A stretch of 64,000 bases of DNA from Escherichia phage p000y: the sequence record MK047718.1; one strand, 5' to 3'. A program made the position numbers and the translations under genes. Numbering within the stretch: the stretch's first letter is position 1; every line of letters starts with the position of its first letter. Shown in pieces: positions 25,008-31,439 of this stretch. Under the pieces are notes generated by a model. The model ran no database searches. It had not been told where the DNA came from and saw nothing but the letters and a program-made list of their open reading frames with translations.

Positions 25008-25622
25008 ATGTTTAAAGTTAATACTTTTTATAAAATGAATTTTAAAAACGGGGATATTACTCCACGCCTTAAAAACATGTTCTCATATGACCTTATCGAG
25101 CCTTTTGAAGTTTTAGAAGTTACTGATGCTGGCTCGGTTTGTGAAATTAGAACTTCTGAAGGTAAAATTTATCAGGCAGGTGTTGGTAAATTCAGTAATT
25201 GTTTTACTTTAATATTCTCGACTGATTTAGATGAGCATTTTATTGAATGTCCTAACCATAAGGTCTACGAAGTTCCATGGAAAGAAACTAAGAAAAATGG
25301 ACCGCATGAATACACGAAGGTTGAAACTCCTCACGGCGATATGTGGCGGCATAACTCTCCTTTCGGAAGTAAAGGAACATTTGCTCAACTGCCTAAACCT
25401 TATGACGATGAAAAATACATCGTCGCCTTTTTATCTGAACAGGGTACTCAAGACCGTGGATGTCAACGAAGTGGTTTACTAAGTGAACTTGAAGCTCATA
25501 ACCAAGCACGTGAATTCGTTGAGAAAAATCCTGGCTCTGAAGCTCTAGTCATGAAAGCAATTACTCAATATATCACTGCTCAACCTGTTGTTCATCCGGT
25601 AGAAATTAATTTCATTAAGTAG
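25008..25622 (+). CDS. Hypothetical protein (30.x block)
   Basis: 204-aa ORF; no motif recognised. Confidence 0.55.
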   Translation: MFKVNTFYKMNFKNGDITPRLKNMFSYDLIEPFEVLEVTDAGSVCEIRTSEGKIYQAGVGKFSNCFTLIFSTDLDEHFIECPNHKVYEVPWKETKKNGPHEYTKVETPHGDMWRHNSPFGSKGTFAQLPKPYDDEKYIVAFLSEQGTQDRGCQRSGLLSELEAHNQAREFVEKNPGSEALVMKAITQYITAQPVVHPVEINFIK

Positions 25623-25652
25623 TTTACATCCAAGGACGGATTAGAGTATAAT
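25622..25652 (+). promoter_or_regulatory. T4 early promoter
   Basis: GTTTAC-N19-TATAAT. Confidence 0.55.
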
Positions 25653-25676
25653 GATTTCTTTAGTAAGTGGAAAAAT

Positions 25677-25874
25677 ATGAAATTTTTAATAGCACAAACA
25701 GTCCAATTAAAAGGTGTTGGAATTCCTGGGGTGATTTTTAAAGTTCTCCCTGAATTTAAAACCGGCGCTGGAATTATCAATGAAGCGTATGCTGTTCAAT
25801 GGGTTGATTGGACTTCTGACATACGTATGGGTAAAGAGTTATCTCCTATTAAAGGGTTGAAACATGTTGAATAA
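25677..25874 (+). CDS. Hypothetical protein
   Basis: 65-aa ORF after early promoter 25622-25652. Confidence 0.45.
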   Translation: MKFLIAQTVQLKGVGIPGVIFKVLPEFKTGAGIINEAYAVQWVDWTSDIRMGKELSPIKGLKHVE

Positions 25875-26076
25875 ATTAATCCAGAAATTGTTAGGTACAG
25901 AAATGGTTGAAGTTACGTATCGTGTGACTGATGTAAGCCCATGGACCCGAAAAGTTGAACCATATACTAAAACAATTAAAATGCTGAAATATGACAGTGG
26001 ATTATCTATCAAAGACCGTCTACCGGCTTATGGTCATTGGGCTGATGTTGAAATTATAAGTGTTAAAGATGTCTGA
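25864..26076 (+). CDS. Hypothetical protein
   Basis: 70-aa ORF. Confidence 0.45.
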   Translation: MLNKLIQKLLGTEMVEVTYRVTDVSPWTRKVEPYTKTIKMLKYDSGLSIKDRLPAYGHWADVEIISVKDV

Positions 26077-26527
26077 GTTAGAGATAAGAAGTAATTTCAA
26101 GTGGCCGTCATGTGCATTAAGTAATTTTGCTCAATGGCCTTTTGTTATGGATGGTATTCAATTCGGAGGTCTTGAAGGATTTCTCCAAGGATGTAAGGTG
26201 AAAAATGTTGAACAACAAAGACGTATATTTGGGTTGTCTGGATTGGCTGCACAGCAAGCTGGAAGGTCTTATGCAAGAGCTCAGGACCGTGGGACTCTCT
26301 TCTGGTTAGGAGTTCCGTTTTCAAGATACTCCGAAGCGTGGAAAGAATTATACACAAATGCATATTTTGAAGCCGCGATCCAAAATAAGGGGTTTCGTGA
26401 TGCCTTACAAGCCTCTAAAGGAAAAATTTTGAAGCACAGCATGGCTAGCCACCTAACAAAAGATGATACAATACTAACCGAAGCTGAATTTATTGATGTG
26501 TTAAACCTATTAAGAGACTCTTTATGA
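26060..26527 (+). CDS. NADAR/YbiA-like (DUF1768) domain protein, putative N-glycosidase / ADP-ribose processing enzyme
   Basis: 155 aa; N-terminal segment LSNFAQWPFVMDGIQFGGLEGFLQGCK resembles remembered YbiA/NADAR core (FSNF..WP..DG....EH.FQA.K). Confidence 0.5.
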   Translation: MLKMSELEIRSNFKWPSCALSNFAQWPFVMDGIQFGGLEGFLQGCKVKNVEQQRRIFGLSGLAAQQAGRSYARAQDRGTLFWLGVPFSRYSEAWKELYTNAYFEAAIQNKGFRDALQASKGKILKHSMASHLTKDDTILTEAEFIDVLNLLRDSL

Positions 26528-27339
26528 AGCCTACTATTTTGACTGATATTGATGGTGTATGTTTAAGCTGGCAATCTGGACTTCCTTATTTTGCCCAAAA
26601 ATATAACCTTCCATTAGAACATATTTTAAAAATGATTCAGGACGAAAAATTTATTTCTCCTGGTAAACTGTTCAATACCGACGATAACCTTGGTAAACAA
26701 TTAATAGAAAAATATAATAGCTCTGATTTTATTCGTTACTTAGCGCCTTATTCTGATGCTCTTCGAGTTATCAATAAACTAAAAGAAGACTATAATTTTG
26801 TAGCCGTGACGGCGCTAGGTGATTCAATTGATGCTCGATTGAATAGACAATTTAATTTGAATGCTTTGTTCCCAGGCGCTTTCTCTGAAGTAATGATGTG
26901 TGGTCATGATTCTTCAAAGGAACAATTATTCGAACTAGCTAAAACAAAATATAACGTAATTTGTTACGTTGACGATTTAGCTCATCATTGCGACCATGCG
27001 GCAGAAATTCTTAATGTACCGATTTATTGGTTGGCTCGTGGTGAACGTGATGATATTCCTCGCACTGCACAACGTGTACACACGTGGGATGATATTGAAT
27101 CTCGTTTGGTTCCACCTGAGCATAATTCAGATTCAGATCGTGAAGACCTTTTAAAACGATTGGCGGATTTGCTTAAAGAATCAGGTGCAACAAGCCCAGG
27201 TGCATGGCCTAATCAAATTGGCGCTCCGTCGAATCCGTATACTTGGCGAACTCCAGGACCAACCGATATGCAGCCATGGTGGACGATTCAAAACTTTCCT
27301 TTAGATTCGTCCAAATGGACTTGGTCTATAAATTGTTAA
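26524..27339 (+). CDS. HAD-superfamily hydrolase (putative phosphatase/nucleotidase)
   Basis: 271 aa; N-terminal HAD motif I LTDIDGV; possible motif IV YVDDL. Confidence 0.55.
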   Translation: MKPTILTDIDGVCLSWQSGLPYFAQKYNLPLEHILKMIQDEKFISPGKLFNTDDNLGKQLIEKYNSSDFIRYLAPYSDALRVINKLKEDYNFVAVTALGDSIDARLNRQFNLNALFPGAFSEVMMCGHDSSKEQLFELAKTKYNVICYVDDLAHHCDHAAEILNVPIYWLARGERDDIPRTAQRVHTWDDIESRLVPPEHNSDSDREDLLKRLADLLKESGATSPGAWPNQIGAPSNPYTWRTPGPTDMQPWWTIQNFPLDSSKWTWSINC

Positions 27340-27348
27340 GGGCTAATT

Positions 27349-27618
27349 ATGTTTGTAGTTCATGATATTACAGATGGCAAAAACACCACACGTGACTACG
27401 GTCATGTTAACATGTTCTTTCGAGACTGGCCGGTGTTTCGTTCAGTAAAAGACGCAGAAATATTTAAAGAGTGTGTTGAACAAGGGTTCATCTACATTTC
27501 AGAATATTATGTTGAAGGACTCGGTAAATGGATTACCACTTATCAGAAAACGCTGAAATCGCTTCTAGATGAAGTGGCTTATAATAGAACCGTAACCAAA
27601 ATCGAGGACATCAAATGA
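27349..27618 (+). CDS. Hypothetical protein (30.1 position)
   Basis: 89-aa ORF immediately upstream of DNA ligase. Confidence 0.5.
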   Translation: MFVVHDITDGKNTTRDYGHVNMFFRDWPVFRSVKDAEIFKECVEQGFIYISEYYVEGLGKWITTYQKTLKSLLDEVAYNRTVTKIEDIK

Positions 27619-29108
27619 TTTTAGATATTTTAAACCAAATAGCTGCGATCGGTTCTACTAAAACAAAACAAGAAATCCTTAAGAAAAATAAGGACAACAA
27701 ATTACTTGAACGTGTGTATCGTTTAACATATGCACGTGGTATCCAGTATTATATTAAGAAATGGCCAGGACCAGGTGAAAGGTCTCAAGCGTATGGTCTT
27801 CTTGAATTAGATGACATGTTGGATTTTATTGAGTTCACATTAGCCACTCGTAAACTCACTGGTAATGCTGCAATTAAAGAGCTCATGGGTTATATCGCTG
27901 ACGGTAAACCTGATGATGTAGAAGTCCTTCGTCGTGTAATGATGCGAGACCTTGAAGTAGGTGCTTCAGTGTCTATCGCGAATAAGGTGTGGCCTGGACT
28001 TATTCAATTGCAGCCACAGATGTTAGCATCTGCATATGATGAGAAATTGATTACTAAAAATATTAAATGGCCTGCATTTGCCCAATTAAAGGCAGATGGT
28101 GCTCGTTGTTTCGCTGAAGTTCGCGATGATGGCGTTCAATTCTTTTCTCGTGCCGGTAACGAATACCATGGTCTTACTCTATTAGCAGATGAACTAATGG
28201 AAATGACTAAAGAAGCTCGTGAAAGACACCCTAATGGGGTTTTAATCGACGGTGAATTAGTTTATCATTCATTTGATATTAAAAAGGCTGTGAGCTCAGG
28301 AAATGACCTGTCGTTCTTATTTGGCGATAATGAAGAATCCGAAGAAGTACAAGTTGCAGACCGTAGCACTTCAAATGGTTTAGCAAATAAATCTCTTCAA
28401 GGGACTATTTCTCCTAAAGAAGCTGAAGGTATGGTTCTTCAAGCCTGGGACTATGTTCCTTTAGATGAAGTCTATTCTGACGGCAAAATTAAAGGTCAGA
28501 AATACGATGTTCGTTTTGCTGCTCTTGAAAATATGGCTGAAGGCTTTAAACGAATTGAGCCAATTGAAAATCAGTTAGTTCATAATCTTGATGAAGCTAA
28601 AGTGGTTTATAAAAAATATGTTGACCAAGGTCTTGAAGGTATTATCCTTAAAAATCGTGATTCATATTGGGAAAACAAACGCTCTAAGAACCTAATTAAA
28701 TTTAAAGAAGTTATTGATATCGCTTTAGAAGTTGTAGGATACTATGAACACTCTAAAGACCCTAACAAATTAGGTGGTGTCGAACTCGTATCACGTTGTC
28801 GTCGTATTACAACCGATTGTGGTTCGGGTTTTAAAGATACAACTCATAAAACAGTTGATGATGTAAAGGTTCTTATTCCTTTAGATGAGCGTCATGATTT
28901 AGACCGTGAACGATTAATGGCTGAAGCTCGTGAAGGTAAATTAATTGGACGTATCGCTGATTGTGAATGTAATGGTTGGGTTCATTCTAAAGGCCGTGAA
29001 GGTACTGTAGGTATTTTCCTTCCAATTATTAAAGGGTTCCGTTTTGATAAAACAGAAGCGGATTCATTTGAAGACGTATTTGGACCGTGGTCCCAGACAG
29101 GTTTATAA
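27615..29108 (+). CDS. 30: ATP-dependent DNA ligase gp30
   Basis: 497 aa; MILDILNQIAAIGSTKTKQEILKKNKDNKLLERVYRLTY... and KADGARCF adenylation motif; matches T4 DNA ligase. Confidence 0.95.
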   Translation: MILDILNQIAAIGSTKTKQEILKKNKDNKLLERVYRLTYARGIQYYIKKWPGPGERSQAYGLLELDDMLDFIEFTLATRKLTGNAAIKELMGYIADGKPDDVEVLRRVMMRDLEVGASVSIANKVWPGLIQLQPQMLASAYDEKLITKNIKWPAFAQLKADGARCFAEVRDDGVQFFSRAGNEYHGLTLLADELMEMTKEARERHPNGVLIDGELVYHSFDIKKAVSSGNDLSFLFGDNEESEEVQVADRSTSNGLANKSLQGTISPKEAEGMVLQAWDYVPLDEVYSDGKIKGQKYDVRFAALENMAEGFKRIEPIENQLVHNLDEAKVVYKKYVDQGLEGIILKNRDSYWENKRSKNLIKFKEVIDIALEVVGYYEHSKDPNKLGGVELVSRCRRITTDCGSGFKDTTHKTVDDVKVLIPLDERHDLDRERLMAEAREGKLIGRIADCECNGWVHSKGREGTVGIFLPIIKGFRFDKTEADSFEDVFGPWSQTGL

Positions 29109-29351: not shown

Positions 29352-31439
29352 ATGTCTGAACAATTAAATGAAGTGTTTGAATCTGAAGGCAGTCTTCCTG
29401 TCGTCAATTTGAACCCTAAAGCTAAAGTTCCACAAGTCTGGAAAATTGGTGATATCGATACAAATATTGTAGTTCGTTTATTCTCTTACCTTTCCGAAGG
29501 CGACGCTGTAAAACAAGTTAAACTTGGCGACAAATACGCTCATGTTGTTATTATGAGTCTGTCTGAAAAGGGTAATCTCGCTGAATTGAAAAATGGTCTT
29601 GGTCCTGCTCCTATTGATGCAATCAACACCATTTTCAATACAGTGTATGAACAGGTTAAAGCTCTTCGTATGGATGCAGTTTTGTTCCGATTCCCTACTA
29701 AGAAATTGAAAGGACGTGGACAACAACTTCAAACTCTTCTTGCTCGTTTAGTTTCTACTAAAACTGGTGGTCGTTTTAAAGTATTGTCTGCAATGTATCA
29801 ATTCACAGGTAAACACACATATGTGATGATGGTTCGTAAAAATGCCAACATTGAAGATATTAAAGGCATCCCTAACATTAACACAGAGTTGTACACGAAA
29901 GTAGATTCTGATGTTGGTGAAGTTTATGTGAGTAAAAAGACTGGCGAAAAGGTCACCAAAGAAACGGCTATCGCTGGTTCTATTGCTGCTGTAGAAGAAA
30001 AACGTAAAGATAAGCCTGTTATTGCTCGTACTAAAATTTCTCGTCGCGCCATTGCAGCAAGTCAATCTTTAGAAGCTGACCGCCAAGAAGGTGAGCTATT
30101 CCAGAAATACGAAAATTCTGCTAAAGAAGTTAGTGGCCCAGCTACAGCTGAATTACTTCCTGAAGCATATGAAATCGTACTAGCCCAAGCATCGTCCACA
30201 GCAAAAGGCACTTTAGTTGCTGATATCGAAAATAAGATTTATAATCGTATTGATGAATCCTTTAGATTTGCTGATGAAGTTTCTTATGGCAGTGTTATTA
30301 AGCCAACTTTAGAAAAGTTTGCTAAGAAAATTAAAACTGAAAAAACAACATCTGTTAAAGCATTAGCTGCTTTTGTTGAAGCTGCAAATGAAATTGCAGA
30401 CTCTATTAAAGACGAATGGTTTGAAGATTTTAGACGAGATAATTTCCAACTGGCTGACGACGTTTTAGCTGAAGTATCTGAAAAAACTTGGAAACAACGT
30501 AAATCAGCGTTCTTGTCTAATGTGATGTATACTTATGCACGAGAATCGGCTAGAGGCACCTTTAATATAACAATGAATCGGGACCCTAAACAATACTCTG
30601 TTGCTGAAAAACGAGCTATTCGTGAATATGCCTCTTCTGCGTATACCGATATCAATAATATGTTGTTAGGCCGTTATAAACCGGATTTTTATGATGTTGC
30701 AGATGAAGATGAAGTTAAACGCGCTATTGATGGTCTTGATTCGGCGTTTTTAAATGGAGACCGTTTACCTGAAGGACTAACGTTGTATAGAGCCCAGTCT
30801 ATCAGAATGCCTATTTATGAAGCAATGGTTAAAAATAAGGTATTCTACTTCAGAAACTATGTTTCCACTTCACTAGCTCCTATTATTTTCGGTGGGTTTA
30901 AAGAGAACGTTGCCCTTGGACTTGCTCCTGAAGAAGTTCGCAAAGAGCTTAACATTGACAATAATGACGAAGGTGTTACTATTTCTCCTAGTCAAGTAAG
31001 AACAGCTATGCATGCACCAGAACAAATCCGTGTTAACGTTGGATGGGCTATTGATGGCGCTCATAAAGTTAACGTGATTTATCCAGGACAGTTGAGTAAT
31101 CACCCTAATGAGCAAGAAATTATTTTGCCTAGAGGCATTCTCTTGCAGATAAATAAAATTACAGATGCGTCATCTGACACTGGTGCAGGTTTAGAATCCA
31201 ACCTTAAATTTATTCAAGCTGAAGTCATGTCCTCAGACCAGTTGGACGAAGCTGTCATTTACGATGGTGATGTTCTCATGGAAACAGGCGAGGTGGTTGC
31301 TATGACGGGTGAAATCGAATCGGATGAGCCGGTATCGTTCTCCTCATTTGTAGAAAAAACTAGTGCTCCTAAAGGATTGAAACTGTTAGCATCTTTAATG
31401 GATTTGGAATCGGTTCCGTTTAAATTTGTTCAAGGATAG
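29352..31439 (+). CDS. alt: Alt-like ADP-ribosyltransferase (head-packaged)
   Basis: 695 aa (T4 Alt ~682 aa); position between 30 and 54; C-terminal region has ART-like segment YASSAYTDINNMLLGR. Confidence 0.8.
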   Translation: MSEQLNEVFESEGSLPVVNLNPKAKVPQVWKIGDIDTNIVVRLFSYLSEGDAVKQVKLGDKYAHVVIMSLSEKGNLAELKNGLGPAPIDAINTIFNTVYEQVKALRMDAVLFRFPTKKLKGRGQQLQTLLARLVSTKTGGRFKVLSAMYQFTGKHTYVMMVRKNANIEDIKGIPNINTELYTKVDSDVGEVYVSKKTGEKVTKETAIAGSIAAVEEKRKDKPVIARTKISRRAIAASQSLEADRQEGELFQKYENSAKEVSGPATAELLPEAYEIVLAQASSTAKGTLVADIENKIYNRIDESFRFADEVSYGSVIKPTLEKFAKKIKTEKTTSVKALAAFVEAANEIADSIKDEWFEDFRRDNFQLADDVLAEVSEKTWKQRKSAFLSNVMYTYARESARGTFNITMNRDPKQYSVAEKRAIREYASSAYTDINNMLLGRYKPDFYDVADEDEVKRAIDGLDSAFLNGDRLPEGLTLYRAQSIRMPIYEAMVKNKVFYFRNYVSTSLAPIIFGGFKENVALGLAPEEVRKELNIDNNDEGVTISPSQVRTAMHAPEQIRVNVGWAIDGAHKVNVIYPGQLSNHPNEQEIILPRGILLQINKITDASSDTGAGLESNLKFIQAEVMSSDQLDEAVIYDGDVLMETGEVVAMTGEIESDEPVSFSSFVEKTSAPKGLKLLASLMDLESVPFKFVQG

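What the first reader, a model, noticed from the sequence alone, without database searches (positions are those of the whole stretch)
26060..27339. NADAR/YbiA-like protein followed by a HAD-family hydrolase in the 30.x accessory block: candidate ADP-ribose or nucleotide-processing anti-defense pair
ORF 26060-26527 has a YbiA/NADAR-like N-terminal core (LSNFAQWPFVMDGIQFGGLEGFLQGCK). NADAR enzymes have been reported to remove ADP-ribose from guanine bases, which would counter DarT-type DNA ADP-ribosylating toxins. The next ORF, with a 4-nt overlap, starts with HAD motif I (LTDIDGV) typical of phosphatases/nucleotidases. The pair sits in the block between rIII and gene 30, where T-even phages are known to keep accessory and anti-host functions. 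The C-terminal half of the NADAR-like ORF does not obviously match what I remember of YbiA, so it may be a divergent subfamily.
Basis: partly seen in the sequence, partly recalled or inferred. Interest (0 to 1): 0.6.

Follow-up and report, generated by a model that had tools for sequence, protein, structure and literature searches.

The report
Known anti-DarT NADAR (AdfN) plus unrelated phosphatase
The first gene is this phage's copy of T4 gene 30.3 (AdfN), an enzyme already shown to strip toxic ADP-ribose off phage DNA and defeat the bacterial DarTG1 defence, while the neighbouring phosphatase-like gene is an uncharacterised nucleotidase relative that does not appear to work with it.

Summary
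Both ORFs are real. The window is a T4-like (Tequatrovirus) phage. ORF1 most likely starts at ATG 26069, not GTG 26060, and ends at 26527. It is the orthologue of T4 gp30.3: 147/152 residues identical, Pfam PF08010 at E 1.8e-69. The predicted structure has a NADAR fold, and the catalytic E36, K43 and phage-type H123 and the C-terminal helix are all intact.

T4 gp30.3 was published in 2024-2025 as AdfN. It is a guanine-specific DNA ADP-ribosylglycohydrolase that is necessary and sufficient to counter DarTG1.

ORF2 (26524-27339, T4 30.2) is a C1-capped HAD phosphatase with all four catalytic motifs. It links through intermediate sequences to the NT5C 5'(3')-deoxyribonucleotidase family and carries a variable disordered tail.

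The "pair" reading is not supported:
- In a published T4 transposon screen on DarTG1, 30.3 is lost (log2FC -7.25) and 30.2 is unaffected (-0.12).
- 30.2 sits next to the DNA ligase gene in 67/77 loci, and next to AdfN in only 35/77.
- Distant AdfN homologues have no conserved neighbour.
- The 4-nt overlap is typical of the whole 30.5-to-30 block.

Interest is low.

The parts
26069..26527 (+). adfN (T4 gene 30.3 orthologue): a 152-aa NADAR-superfamily DNA ADP-ribosylglycohydrolase and anti-DarTG1 factor. The longest ORF starts at GTG 26060, but ATG 26069 is the T4-equivalent start.
   Evidence: Pfam PF08010 at E 1.8e-69. 147/152 residues identical to T4 gp30.3. E36, K43 and H123 are invariant in 58 homologues. 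AlphaFold2 mean pLDDT 93.3. The top three Foldseek PDB hits are the NADAR structures 2b3w, 8bau and 8bat. The family profile hits YbiA at E 0.0029. Function was shown for the T4 orthologue in PMC11825919 and PMC11125620.
26524..27339 (+). T4 gene 30.2 orthologue: a 271-aa HAD-superfamily phosphatase. Residues 1-195 form the core with a C1 helical cap, residues 202-220 form a helix, and residues about 223-271 form a Pro/Trp-rich disordered tail (about 27190-27336). It is a probable NT5C-like (deoxy)nucleotidase.
25864..26076 (+). T4 gene 30.4 orthologue (70 aa, unknown function). Its stop codon overlaps the adfN start codon.
   Evidence: PHROG 2042 at E 4.5e-34. It is the only gene besides 30.3 that is significantly depleted on DarTG1 in the T4 transposon screen (log2FC -1.79, adjusted p 0.014). 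That is probably a polar or translational-coupling effect.
27349..27618 (+). T4 gene 30.1 orthologue (89 aa, DUF3045), between 30.2 and the ligase gene.
   Evidence: Pfam PF11243 at E 1.1e-26.
27615..29108 (+). Gene 30, ATP-dependent DNA ligase. It is the conserved downstream neighbour of 30.2.
   Evidence: with T4 synteny. The ligase lies within 1.2 kb downstream of 30.2 on the same strand in 67 of 77 viral loci.
25623..25652 (+). Sigma-70-like promoter match (TTTACA-18-TATAAT, 11/12) upstream of 30.5. It is a candidate start of the 30.5-30.4-adfN-30.2-30.1-30 transcript.
   Evidence: This is a consensus match only, and the total number of sites in the region is not above the shuffled expectation.

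Best explanation
ORF1 is adfN, the orthologue of T4 gene 30.3. When the host toxin DarT1 ADP-ribosylates guanines in replicating phage DNA, AdfN hydrolyses the N-glycosidic ribose-guanine bond, releases ADP-ribose and restores a replicable template. It uses the conserved Glu36/Lys43 pair, with His123 in the last strand in place of the Glu or Asp of cellular NADARs. It acts as an orphan antitoxin and does not bind the toxin. ORF2 is the orthologue of T4 gene 30.2. It is a separate, non-essential Mg-dependent HAD phosphatase with a small-molecule (C1) cap. It is most likely a 5'(3')-(deoxy)nucleotidase-like enzyme acting on a nucleotide or other small phosphoester, and it carries a lineage-variable disordered tail. 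The two genes are neighbours because both sit in the densely packed early transcription block upstream of DNA ligase. They are not a functional unit. What is shown: orthology, fold and catalytic residues (here), and enzyme activity and phenotype of the T4 protein (literature). What is inferred: that this 97%-identical copy behaves the same, and the substrate class of 30.2.
For: AdfN:
- Pfam PF08010 at 232 bits.
- 97% identity to T4 gp30.3, and none of the 5 differences falls on an invariant position.
- NADAR fold: the only significant or near-significant PDB matches are YbiA, P. nicotianae NADAR and G. lovleyi DarG1-type NADAR.
- The family profile hits YbiA at E 0.0029 over the LSNF...E..FQ..K core.
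- Literature: T4/T2 adfN deletions lose plaquing on DarTG1. Ectopic AdfN rescues RB69. Purified AdfN, but not E36A, removes ADP-ribose from DNA. Truncating the C-terminal helix lowers activity (PMC11825919). gp30.3 is active in vitro on G-ADPr but not T-ADPr (PMC11125620).

30.2:
- HAD motifs I-IV are conserved.
- Deoxyribonucleotidases are among the best Foldseek matches by target-normalised TM-score (0.62-0.70).
- More distant relatives are found with the 30.2 profile (hhalign probability 100%, E 7e-54). They match Pfam NT5C in 31/60 cases and PDB 3bwv at E 2e-5.

Independence of the two genes:
- HIDEN-SEQ DarTG1 sheet: 30.3 log2FC -7.25, 30.2 -0.12 (71 TA sites, adjusted p 1.0), and only 2 significant genes in total.
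- 30.2 is non-essential, with 72/72 TA sites hit.
- Only about 21 of 80 AdfN loci have 30.2 within 6 kb.
- Of 77 loci containing 30.2, 67 have the ligase just downstream and 35 have AdfN just upstream.
- No neighbour family recurs in more than 8 of 66 distant AdfN loci.
Against: - No enzyme assay or phage genetics exists for this particular phage; function is transferred from a 97%-identical orthologue.
- The window protein has no direct Pfam NADAR (PF08719) hit at E <= 1.
- The transposon data come from a preprint, in T4, for one host, one condition and one DarTG1 allele. Redundancy could hide a contribution from 30.2.
- AdfN and 30.2 do co-occur in nearly the same set of about 1,450-1,500 phage genomes, and they are adjacent or within about 1.3 kb in roughly half of the loci containing 30.2.
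Confidence: 0.82

Rival explanations
1. One reading: AdfN and the HAD protein 30.2 form a two-enzyme anti-defence pair. For example, 30.2 could process the released ADP-ribose or a phosphoribosyl remnant, or it could be the unknown T-even factor that AdfN needs for full activity.
For: The two genes overlap by 4 nt and are co-oriented. They are adjacent in Tequatrovirus/Mosigvirus-like phages and within about 1.3 kb in several other T4-like lineages. Both occur in almost the same set of phage genomes. The literature reports that T4 AdfN needs an unidentified T-even factor.
Against: T4 insertions in 30.2 (71 sites) are neutral on DarTG1 (log2FC -0.12) while 30.3 insertions are lost. In many T4-like phages the two genes are tens of kb apart, for example Klebsiella phages and Erwinia phage Cronus. 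30.2 follows the ligase gene, not AdfN. Gene overlaps are the norm across the whole 30.5-to-30 block. Their co-occurrence is explained by both being near-universal in Straboviridae.
Confidence: 0.06
2. The real helper of AdfN is the small upstream gene 30.4 (25864-26076). It would be the T-even-specific potentiating factor postulated in the literature.
For: 30.4 is the only gene other than 30.3 that is significantly depleted on DarTG1 in the T4 screen (log2FC -1.79, adjusted p 0.014). Its stop codon overlaps the adfN start codon. It is restricted to T-even-like loci (14/80), which fits the phage-group specificity reported for T4 AdfN.
Against: 30.5, further upstream, is also depleted (-3.0, not significant), which suggests polarity or loss of translational coupling onto adfN. 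The window's 30.4 is only 46% identical to T4 30.4, although the adjacent AdfN is 97% identical, so the two are freely recombined rather than co-evolving. No interaction or structural evidence exists.
Confidence: 0.1
3. 30.2 works with DNA ligase rather than on free nucleotides. It would act as a DNA-end 3'-phosphatase that prepares nicks for sealing, like the HAD domain of polynucleotide kinase-phosphatase.
For: There is strong conserved linkage with gene 30: in 67/77 loci the ligase lies within 1.2 kb downstream on the same strand. 30.2 has DxDxT/V-type phosphatase chemistry. One distant relative gives a weak HAD_PNKP hit.
Confidence: 0.08
4. The main physiological substrate of AdfN in this phage is not ADP-ribosylated DNA. 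It would instead be a soluble ADP-ribose derivative (an immune signal) or a YbiA-type riboflavin intermediate.
For: A comparative-genomics study proposed soluble ADPr derivatives as the usual targets of phage NADARs (PMC9503650). YbiA is the best structural match.
Against: There is direct genetic and biochemical evidence for DNA de-ADP-ribosylation and DarTG1 counter-defence by the T4 orthologue. The His-for-Glu change separates it from the YbiA subfamily.
Confidence: 0.04

Closest known systems
T4 gp30.3 = AdfN (anti-DarT factor NADAR), Johannesman et al. 2025 (PMC11825919); Pfam PF08010 Phage_30_3
   Same: It is 97% identical over all 152 residues. It occupies the same genomic slot (30.4 - 30.3 - 30.2 - 30.1 - 30). 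It has the same catalytic E36/K43/H123 and an intact C-terminal helix.
   Different: There are five conservative or peripheral substitutions (positions 11, 89, 120, 125, 128). The overlapping alternative-frame ORF 30.3' annotated in T4 is interrupted by a stop codon here.
DarG1 antitoxin (DarT1-associated NADAR, e.g. G. lovleyi 8bat) and E. coli YbiA (2b3w)
   Same: It has the NADAR fold and the N-terminal catalytic Glu/Lys core. For DarG1, the guanine-ADPr DNA glycohydrolase chemistry is also shared.
   Different: Sequence identity is about 16-20%. There is no N-terminal extension. His replaces the Asp (DarG1) or Glu (YbiA) in the last strand. The gene is encoded alone in a lytic phage, without a toxin. 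According to the literature, T4 AdfN does not rescue DarT1 toxicity in uninfected cells.
NT5C-type 5'(3')-deoxyribonucleotidases (cdN/mdN, 2jao, 1mh9; S. epidermidis 3bwv) within the HAD superfamily
   Same: 30.2 has the HAD Rossmann-like core with a C1 helical cap, motifs I-IV including the DxD of phosphatases, a similar core length (about 195 aa), and a transitive profile link.
   Different: The window protein itself does not reach the NT5C or any HAD Pfam threshold. It carries an extra roughly 75-residue C-terminal extension (a helix plus a disordered Pro/Trp-rich tail) that varies between phage lineages. Its substrate is unknown.

Membership tests
Phage gp30.3 / AdfN clade of the NADAR superfamily | Sequence match to Pfam PF08010 (Phage_30_3) above the gathering score | tested here: met
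   232.3 bits against a cutoff of 36, E 1.8e-69, covering profile positions 1-138 of 138. 97% identity to T4 gp30.3.
Phage gp30.3 / AdfN clade of the NADAR superfamily | Catalytic Glu and Lys (T4 E36, K43), plus His in the last beta-strand in place of the YbiA Glu or DarG1 Asp | tested here: met
   E36, K43 and H123 are present and invariant in 58 homologues. The definitions of these residues come from PMC11825919, PMC11125620 and PMC11543638.
Phage gp30.3 / AdfN clade of the NADAR superfamily | Intact C-terminal helix (lost in the DarTG1-sensitive RB69 allele) | tested here: met
   The protein is full length at 152 aa. The model shows a helix at residues 138-151.
NADAR superfamily (Pfam PF08719, YbiA fold) | Direct match to the Pfam NADAR model | tested here: not met
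   There is no PF08719 hit at E <= 1 for the window protein. The link is indirect: the family profile hits YbiA at E 0.0029, and one homologue carries both PF08010 and PF08719 (P0082).
NADAR superfamily (Pfam PF08719, YbiA fold) | NADAR alpha+beta fold | tested here: met
   AlphaFold2 mean pLDDT 93.3, pTM 0.89. The top three Foldseek PDB hits are 2b3w (E 6.8e-5, TM 0.68), 8bau and 8bat. No other hit has E below 3.
NADAR superfamily (Pfam PF08719, YbiA fold) | Guanine-ADP-ribose DNA glycohydrolase activity and an anti-DarTG1 phenotype | not testable with these tools
   Both are shown for the T4 orthologue only (PMC11825919, PMC11125620; HIDEN-SEQ preprint).
HAD superfamily phosphatases | Four catalytic motifs: I DxDx(T/V), II S/T, III K, IV DD | tested here: met
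   D8-I-D10-G-V12, T96, K132 and D150-D151. D8, D10 and K132 are invariant, and the others are at least 90% conserved in 56 homologues.
HAD superfamily phosphatases | Rossmann-like HAD core with a cap domain | tested here: met
HAD superfamily phosphatases | Pfam HAD model above the gathering score | tested here: not met
   HAD_2 scores 16.0 bits against a cutoff of 23.8. Only sub-threshold hits are seen in 6-10 of 56 family members.
NT5C 5'(3')-deoxyribonucleotidase family (PF06941) | Sequence membership | tested here: inconclusive
   The window protein has no NT5C hit, and 8/56 close homologues have sub-threshold hits. Intermediates found with the 30.2 profile (A3; hhalign to A2 probability 100%, E 7e-54) match NT5C in 31/60 cases (best E 4.2e-10) and match PDB 3bwv at E 2e-5.
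NT5C 5'(3')-deoxyribonucleotidase family (PF06941) | Nucleotidase activity | not testable with these tools
   No literature on gp30.2 was found.
Two-gene counter-defence module (AdfN + partner) | Conserved adjacency across lineages, and a shared loss-of-function phenotype | tested here: not met
   AdfN lies upstream within 1.2 kb of 30.2 in 35/77 loci containing 30.2, against 67/77 for the ligase. In AdfN loci, 30.2 lies within 6 kb in about 21/80. On DarTG1, 30.2 insertions are neutral while 30.3 insertions are lost.

The most novel reading that the evidence does not exclude
The literature leaves one question open: T4 AdfN works fully only during T-even infection and needs an unidentified phage factor. 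The data collected here exclude the downstream HAD gene 30.2 as that factor. They leave the tiny upstream gene 30.4 (25864-26076), which is translationally coupled to adfN, as the only non-essential candidate. It is the sole other significant hit on DarTG1 in the T4 transposon screen. If 30.4 is a true cofactor rather than a polar effect, AdfN would be a two-component, phage-lineage-locked counter-defence.
Probability: 0.1. Interest if true: 0.5.

Novelty: already known. Interest (0 to 1): 0.15.

Why it matters
It adds no new biology, because this phage simply carries an intact, near-identical allele and is predicted to resist DarTG1. The useful outcomes are negative or incremental:
- The neighbouring HAD gene should not be annotated as part of an anti-DarT module.
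- It can be annotated as an NT5C-like HAD phosphatase whose conserved partner is the ligase gene.
- The open question of AdfN's T-even-specific helper narrows to essential genes, redundant genes or 30.4.

Tried and rejected
- Direct Pfam NADAR hit for ORF1: none at E <= 1.
- NCBIfam: no match for ORF1, and for ORF2 only a far-sub-threshold HAD_type_II hit (12.7 bits against a cutoff of 125.4). PADLOC: no match for either protein.
- Single-sequence phmmer against PDB: nothing for ORF1, and only E 0.18 to a deoxyribonucleotidase for ORF2. The 30.2 family profile against PDB was also non-significant.
- Literature searches for gp30.2, and for T4 30.2 with haloacid: no papers.
- A NARP3 paper and a PUA-Cal-HAD defence paper were checked for a role of a phage HAD or 30.2: none.
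- Promoters: I searched for MotA-type middle promoters to decide whether the 30.4/30.5 depletion is polar. None lies in the 30.x block of T4 or the window. Sigma-70-like scans are not above background. Polarity therefore could not be settled.
- Genome-level co-occurrence of AdfN and 30.2 (about 1,510 against 1,438 records with the same genus profile) was considered as support for a pair. I rejected it because both genes are near-universal in T4-like phages.

Full report
**Observation**

The window is a T4-like myovirus. The best DNA match over 25600-27700 is Escherichia phage FP43 at 98.8%, and 143 records cover at least 80% of the query. The region 22.8-31.4 kb reads, all on the + strand: gp31, rIII, 30.9 to 30.1, DNA ligase gp30 (27615-29108) and an Alt-like ADP-ribosyltransferase (29352-31439). 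This is the T4 order.

Both ORFs of the finding exist.
- ORF1 is listed from GTG 26060. The T4 gene starts at the ATG equivalent to 26069 (MSELEIRS...), which overlaps the stop of 30.4 as ATGTCTGA. So 26069-26527 (152 aa) is the likely gene.
- ORF2 is 26524-27339 (271 aa). It overlaps ORF1 by ATGA and begins with HAD motif I.
- Overlaps are general in this block: 30.5/30.4 by 11 nt, 30.4/adfN by 8 nt, adfN/30.2 by 4 nt, and 30.1/30 by 4 nt.

**ORF1 is AdfN**

- It matches Pfam PF08010 (Phage_30_3) at E 1.8e-69 and PHROG 652.
- It is 147/152 identical to T4 gp30.3.
- In an alignment of 58 homologues down to 35% identity, E36, K43 and H123 are invariant. None of the five differences from T4 falls on an invariant column.
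- AlphaFold2 gives a confident model (pLDDT 93.3, pTM 0.89).
- The three best PDB matches are the NADAR structures E. coli YbiA (2b3w, E 6.8e-5), Phytophthora NADAR with ADP-ribose (8bau) and Geobacter lovleyi NADAR (8bat). Nothing else has E below 3.
- At sequence level the window protein has no direct Pfam NADAR hit.

**What the literature already shows**

Johannesman et al. (Nat Commun 2025, PMC11825919) mapped DarTG1 resistance of T-even phages to gene 30.3 and renamed it adfN.
- Deleting it from T4 and T2 abolishes plaquing on DarTG1.
- Ectopic expression rescues RB69, whose allele is frameshifted and lacks the last helix.
- E36A and K43A variants, and the truncated variant, are impaired.
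- Purified protein removes ADP-ribose from DNA.
- It does not counter DarTG2.

Toxins 2024 (PMC11125620) independently showed in vitro activity of gp30.3 on guanine-ADPr. That paper also describes the phage clade as having His where YbiA has Glu and DarG1 has Asp; Schuller et al. 2023 say the same. A T4 transposon screen confirms the phenotype (HIDEN-SEQ preprint). This phage carries an intact allele.

**ORF2 is a HAD phosphatase, probably NT5C-like**

- It matches PHROG 420 (E 1.9e-78), a family of unknown function. Its only Pfam hit is sub-threshold (HAD_2, 16 bits).
- It is 70% identical to T4 gp30.2. The first roughly 195 residues are highly similar and the tail is diverged.
- Across 56 homologues from T4-like phages of many hosts, D8, D10 and K132 are invariant. 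T96 and D150-D151 are at least 90% conserved. These are HAD motifs I-IV, with the DxD typical of phosphoryl transfer.
- The AlphaFold2 model has a confident core, with a helical insert at residues 14-75 directly after motif I (a C1 cap). Residues 223-271 are disordered.
- An exhaustive profile search finds 1,074 cluster representatives at E <= 1e-3, mostly 190-215 aa.
- A set of 60 of the more distant relatives aligns to the 30.2 family at hhalign probability 100% (E 7e-54). Of these, 31 match Pfam NT5C, and their profile hits PDB 3bwv (putative 5'(3')-deoxyribonucleotidase) at E 2e-5.
- I conclude that 30.2 is a divergent NT5C-like HAD phosphatase. A nucleotide substrate is inferred, not shown.
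- No paper on gp30.2 was found.

**Are they a pair? Four lines say no**

1. Genetics. In the HIDEN-SEQ T4 library challenged with DarTG1 (Extended Data Table 6, sheet S6), 30.3 insertions drop by log2FC -7.25 (adjusted p 0). 30.2 insertions (71 TA sites) are unchanged (-0.12, adjusted p 1.0). Only two genes are significant, 30.3 and 30.4. 30.2 is non-essential, with 72/72 sites hit.
2. Synteny from the AdfN side. Of 80 viral loci with an AdfN homologue, 30.2 lies within 6 kb in about 21. Immediate adjacency is confined to Tequatrovirus/Mosigvirus-like contigs plus one other. Among 66 distant AdfN loci, no neighbour family occurs in more than 8. This fits an orphan gene.
3. Synteny from the 30.2 side. 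Of 77 loci, the ligase is within 1.2 kb downstream on the same strand in 67. AdfN is within 1.2 kb upstream in 35. In several lineages both genes are present but far apart, for example Erwinia phage Cronus and Klebsiella phages.
4. Co-occurrence. The two genes share a near-identical genome-level distribution (1,510 against 1,438 records with the same genus profile). This reflects both being near-universal in T4-like phages, and the 4-nt overlap is the local norm.

**Loose ends**

The literature reports that T4 AdfN fails to rescue DarT1 toxicity in uninfected cells and only partly rescues non-T-even phages. It therefore postulates an unknown T-even factor. The transposon data exclude 30.2 as that factor.

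The only other significant gene is 30.4 (-1.79, adjusted p 0.014). Because 30.5 is also depleted (-3.0, not significant) and the 30.4 stop overlaps the adfN start, polarity or loss of translational coupling is the simpler reading. I could not settle this from promoter scans. The window's 30.4 is only 46% identical to T4's, although it lies next to a 97%-identical AdfN. That argues against tight co-evolution. I give the cofactor idea about 10%.

**Verdict**

Novelty: already known. Interest: low.

Noticed in passing
window 26205-26432 (+), alternative frame inside adfN: T4 annotates a 75-aa internal alternative-frame ORF, 30.3'. In this window the same frame has a stop at codon 35, so 30.3' is not conserved and is probably not a real gene.
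   Followed up: partly
window 25864-26076 (30.4) and the T4 HIDEN-SEQ DarTG1 table: 30.4 is the only gene besides adfN that is significantly depleted on DarTG1 (log2FC -1.79). It may be a polar or translational-coupling effect, or the unknown AdfN helper. The window's 30.4 is 46% identical to T4's but 69-84% identical to RB69/Mosigvirus-like alleles, next to a T4-like (97%) adfN, which indicates a recombination mosaic.
   Followed up: partly
window 25008-25622 (+): A 204-aa ORF (PHROG 17531, no Pfam match) occupies the slot where T4 has 30.6. It occurs in only about 120 Tequatrovirus/Shigella phage records, so it is a variable accessory gene of unknown function.
   Followed up: partly
window about 27108-27336 (30.2 residues about 195-271): The C-terminal extension of 30.2 (a helix plus a Pro/Trp-rich disordered tail) is highly variable between lineages and absent in many. 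In the phage database the window's allele class is the minority: 148 records at >= 95% identity against 588 at 60-80%. The role of the tail is unknown.
   Followed up: no
L082-L158 (viral loci around 30.2 homologues): 30.2 is almost always immediately upstream of the DNA ligase gene across very diverse T4-like phages (67/77 loci), sometimes with only 2-40 nt between them. One record even annotates a 30.2 homologue as 'DNA ligase'. A functional link to ligation or to nucleotide supply is possible but untested.
   Followed up: partly
whole window: The MotA-box-like middle-promoter pattern TGCTTNA-N10-14-TANNNT occurs 18 times against 6.3 expected, with 15 on the + strand. This is consistent with T4-type middle transcription. 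None of these sites lies upstream of the genes from 30.9 to adfN and 30.2; the only one within the 30.x-to-30 stretch (27962) lies inside the ligase gene.
   Followed up: no
window 29352-31439 (+): An Alt-like ADP-ribosyltransferase (695 aa, Pfam ADPrib_exo_Tox at E 5.9e-28) lies 2.8 kb downstream of adfN. This fits an earlier comparative-genomics remark that T4-like NADARs are early genes near ARTs.
   Followed up: no
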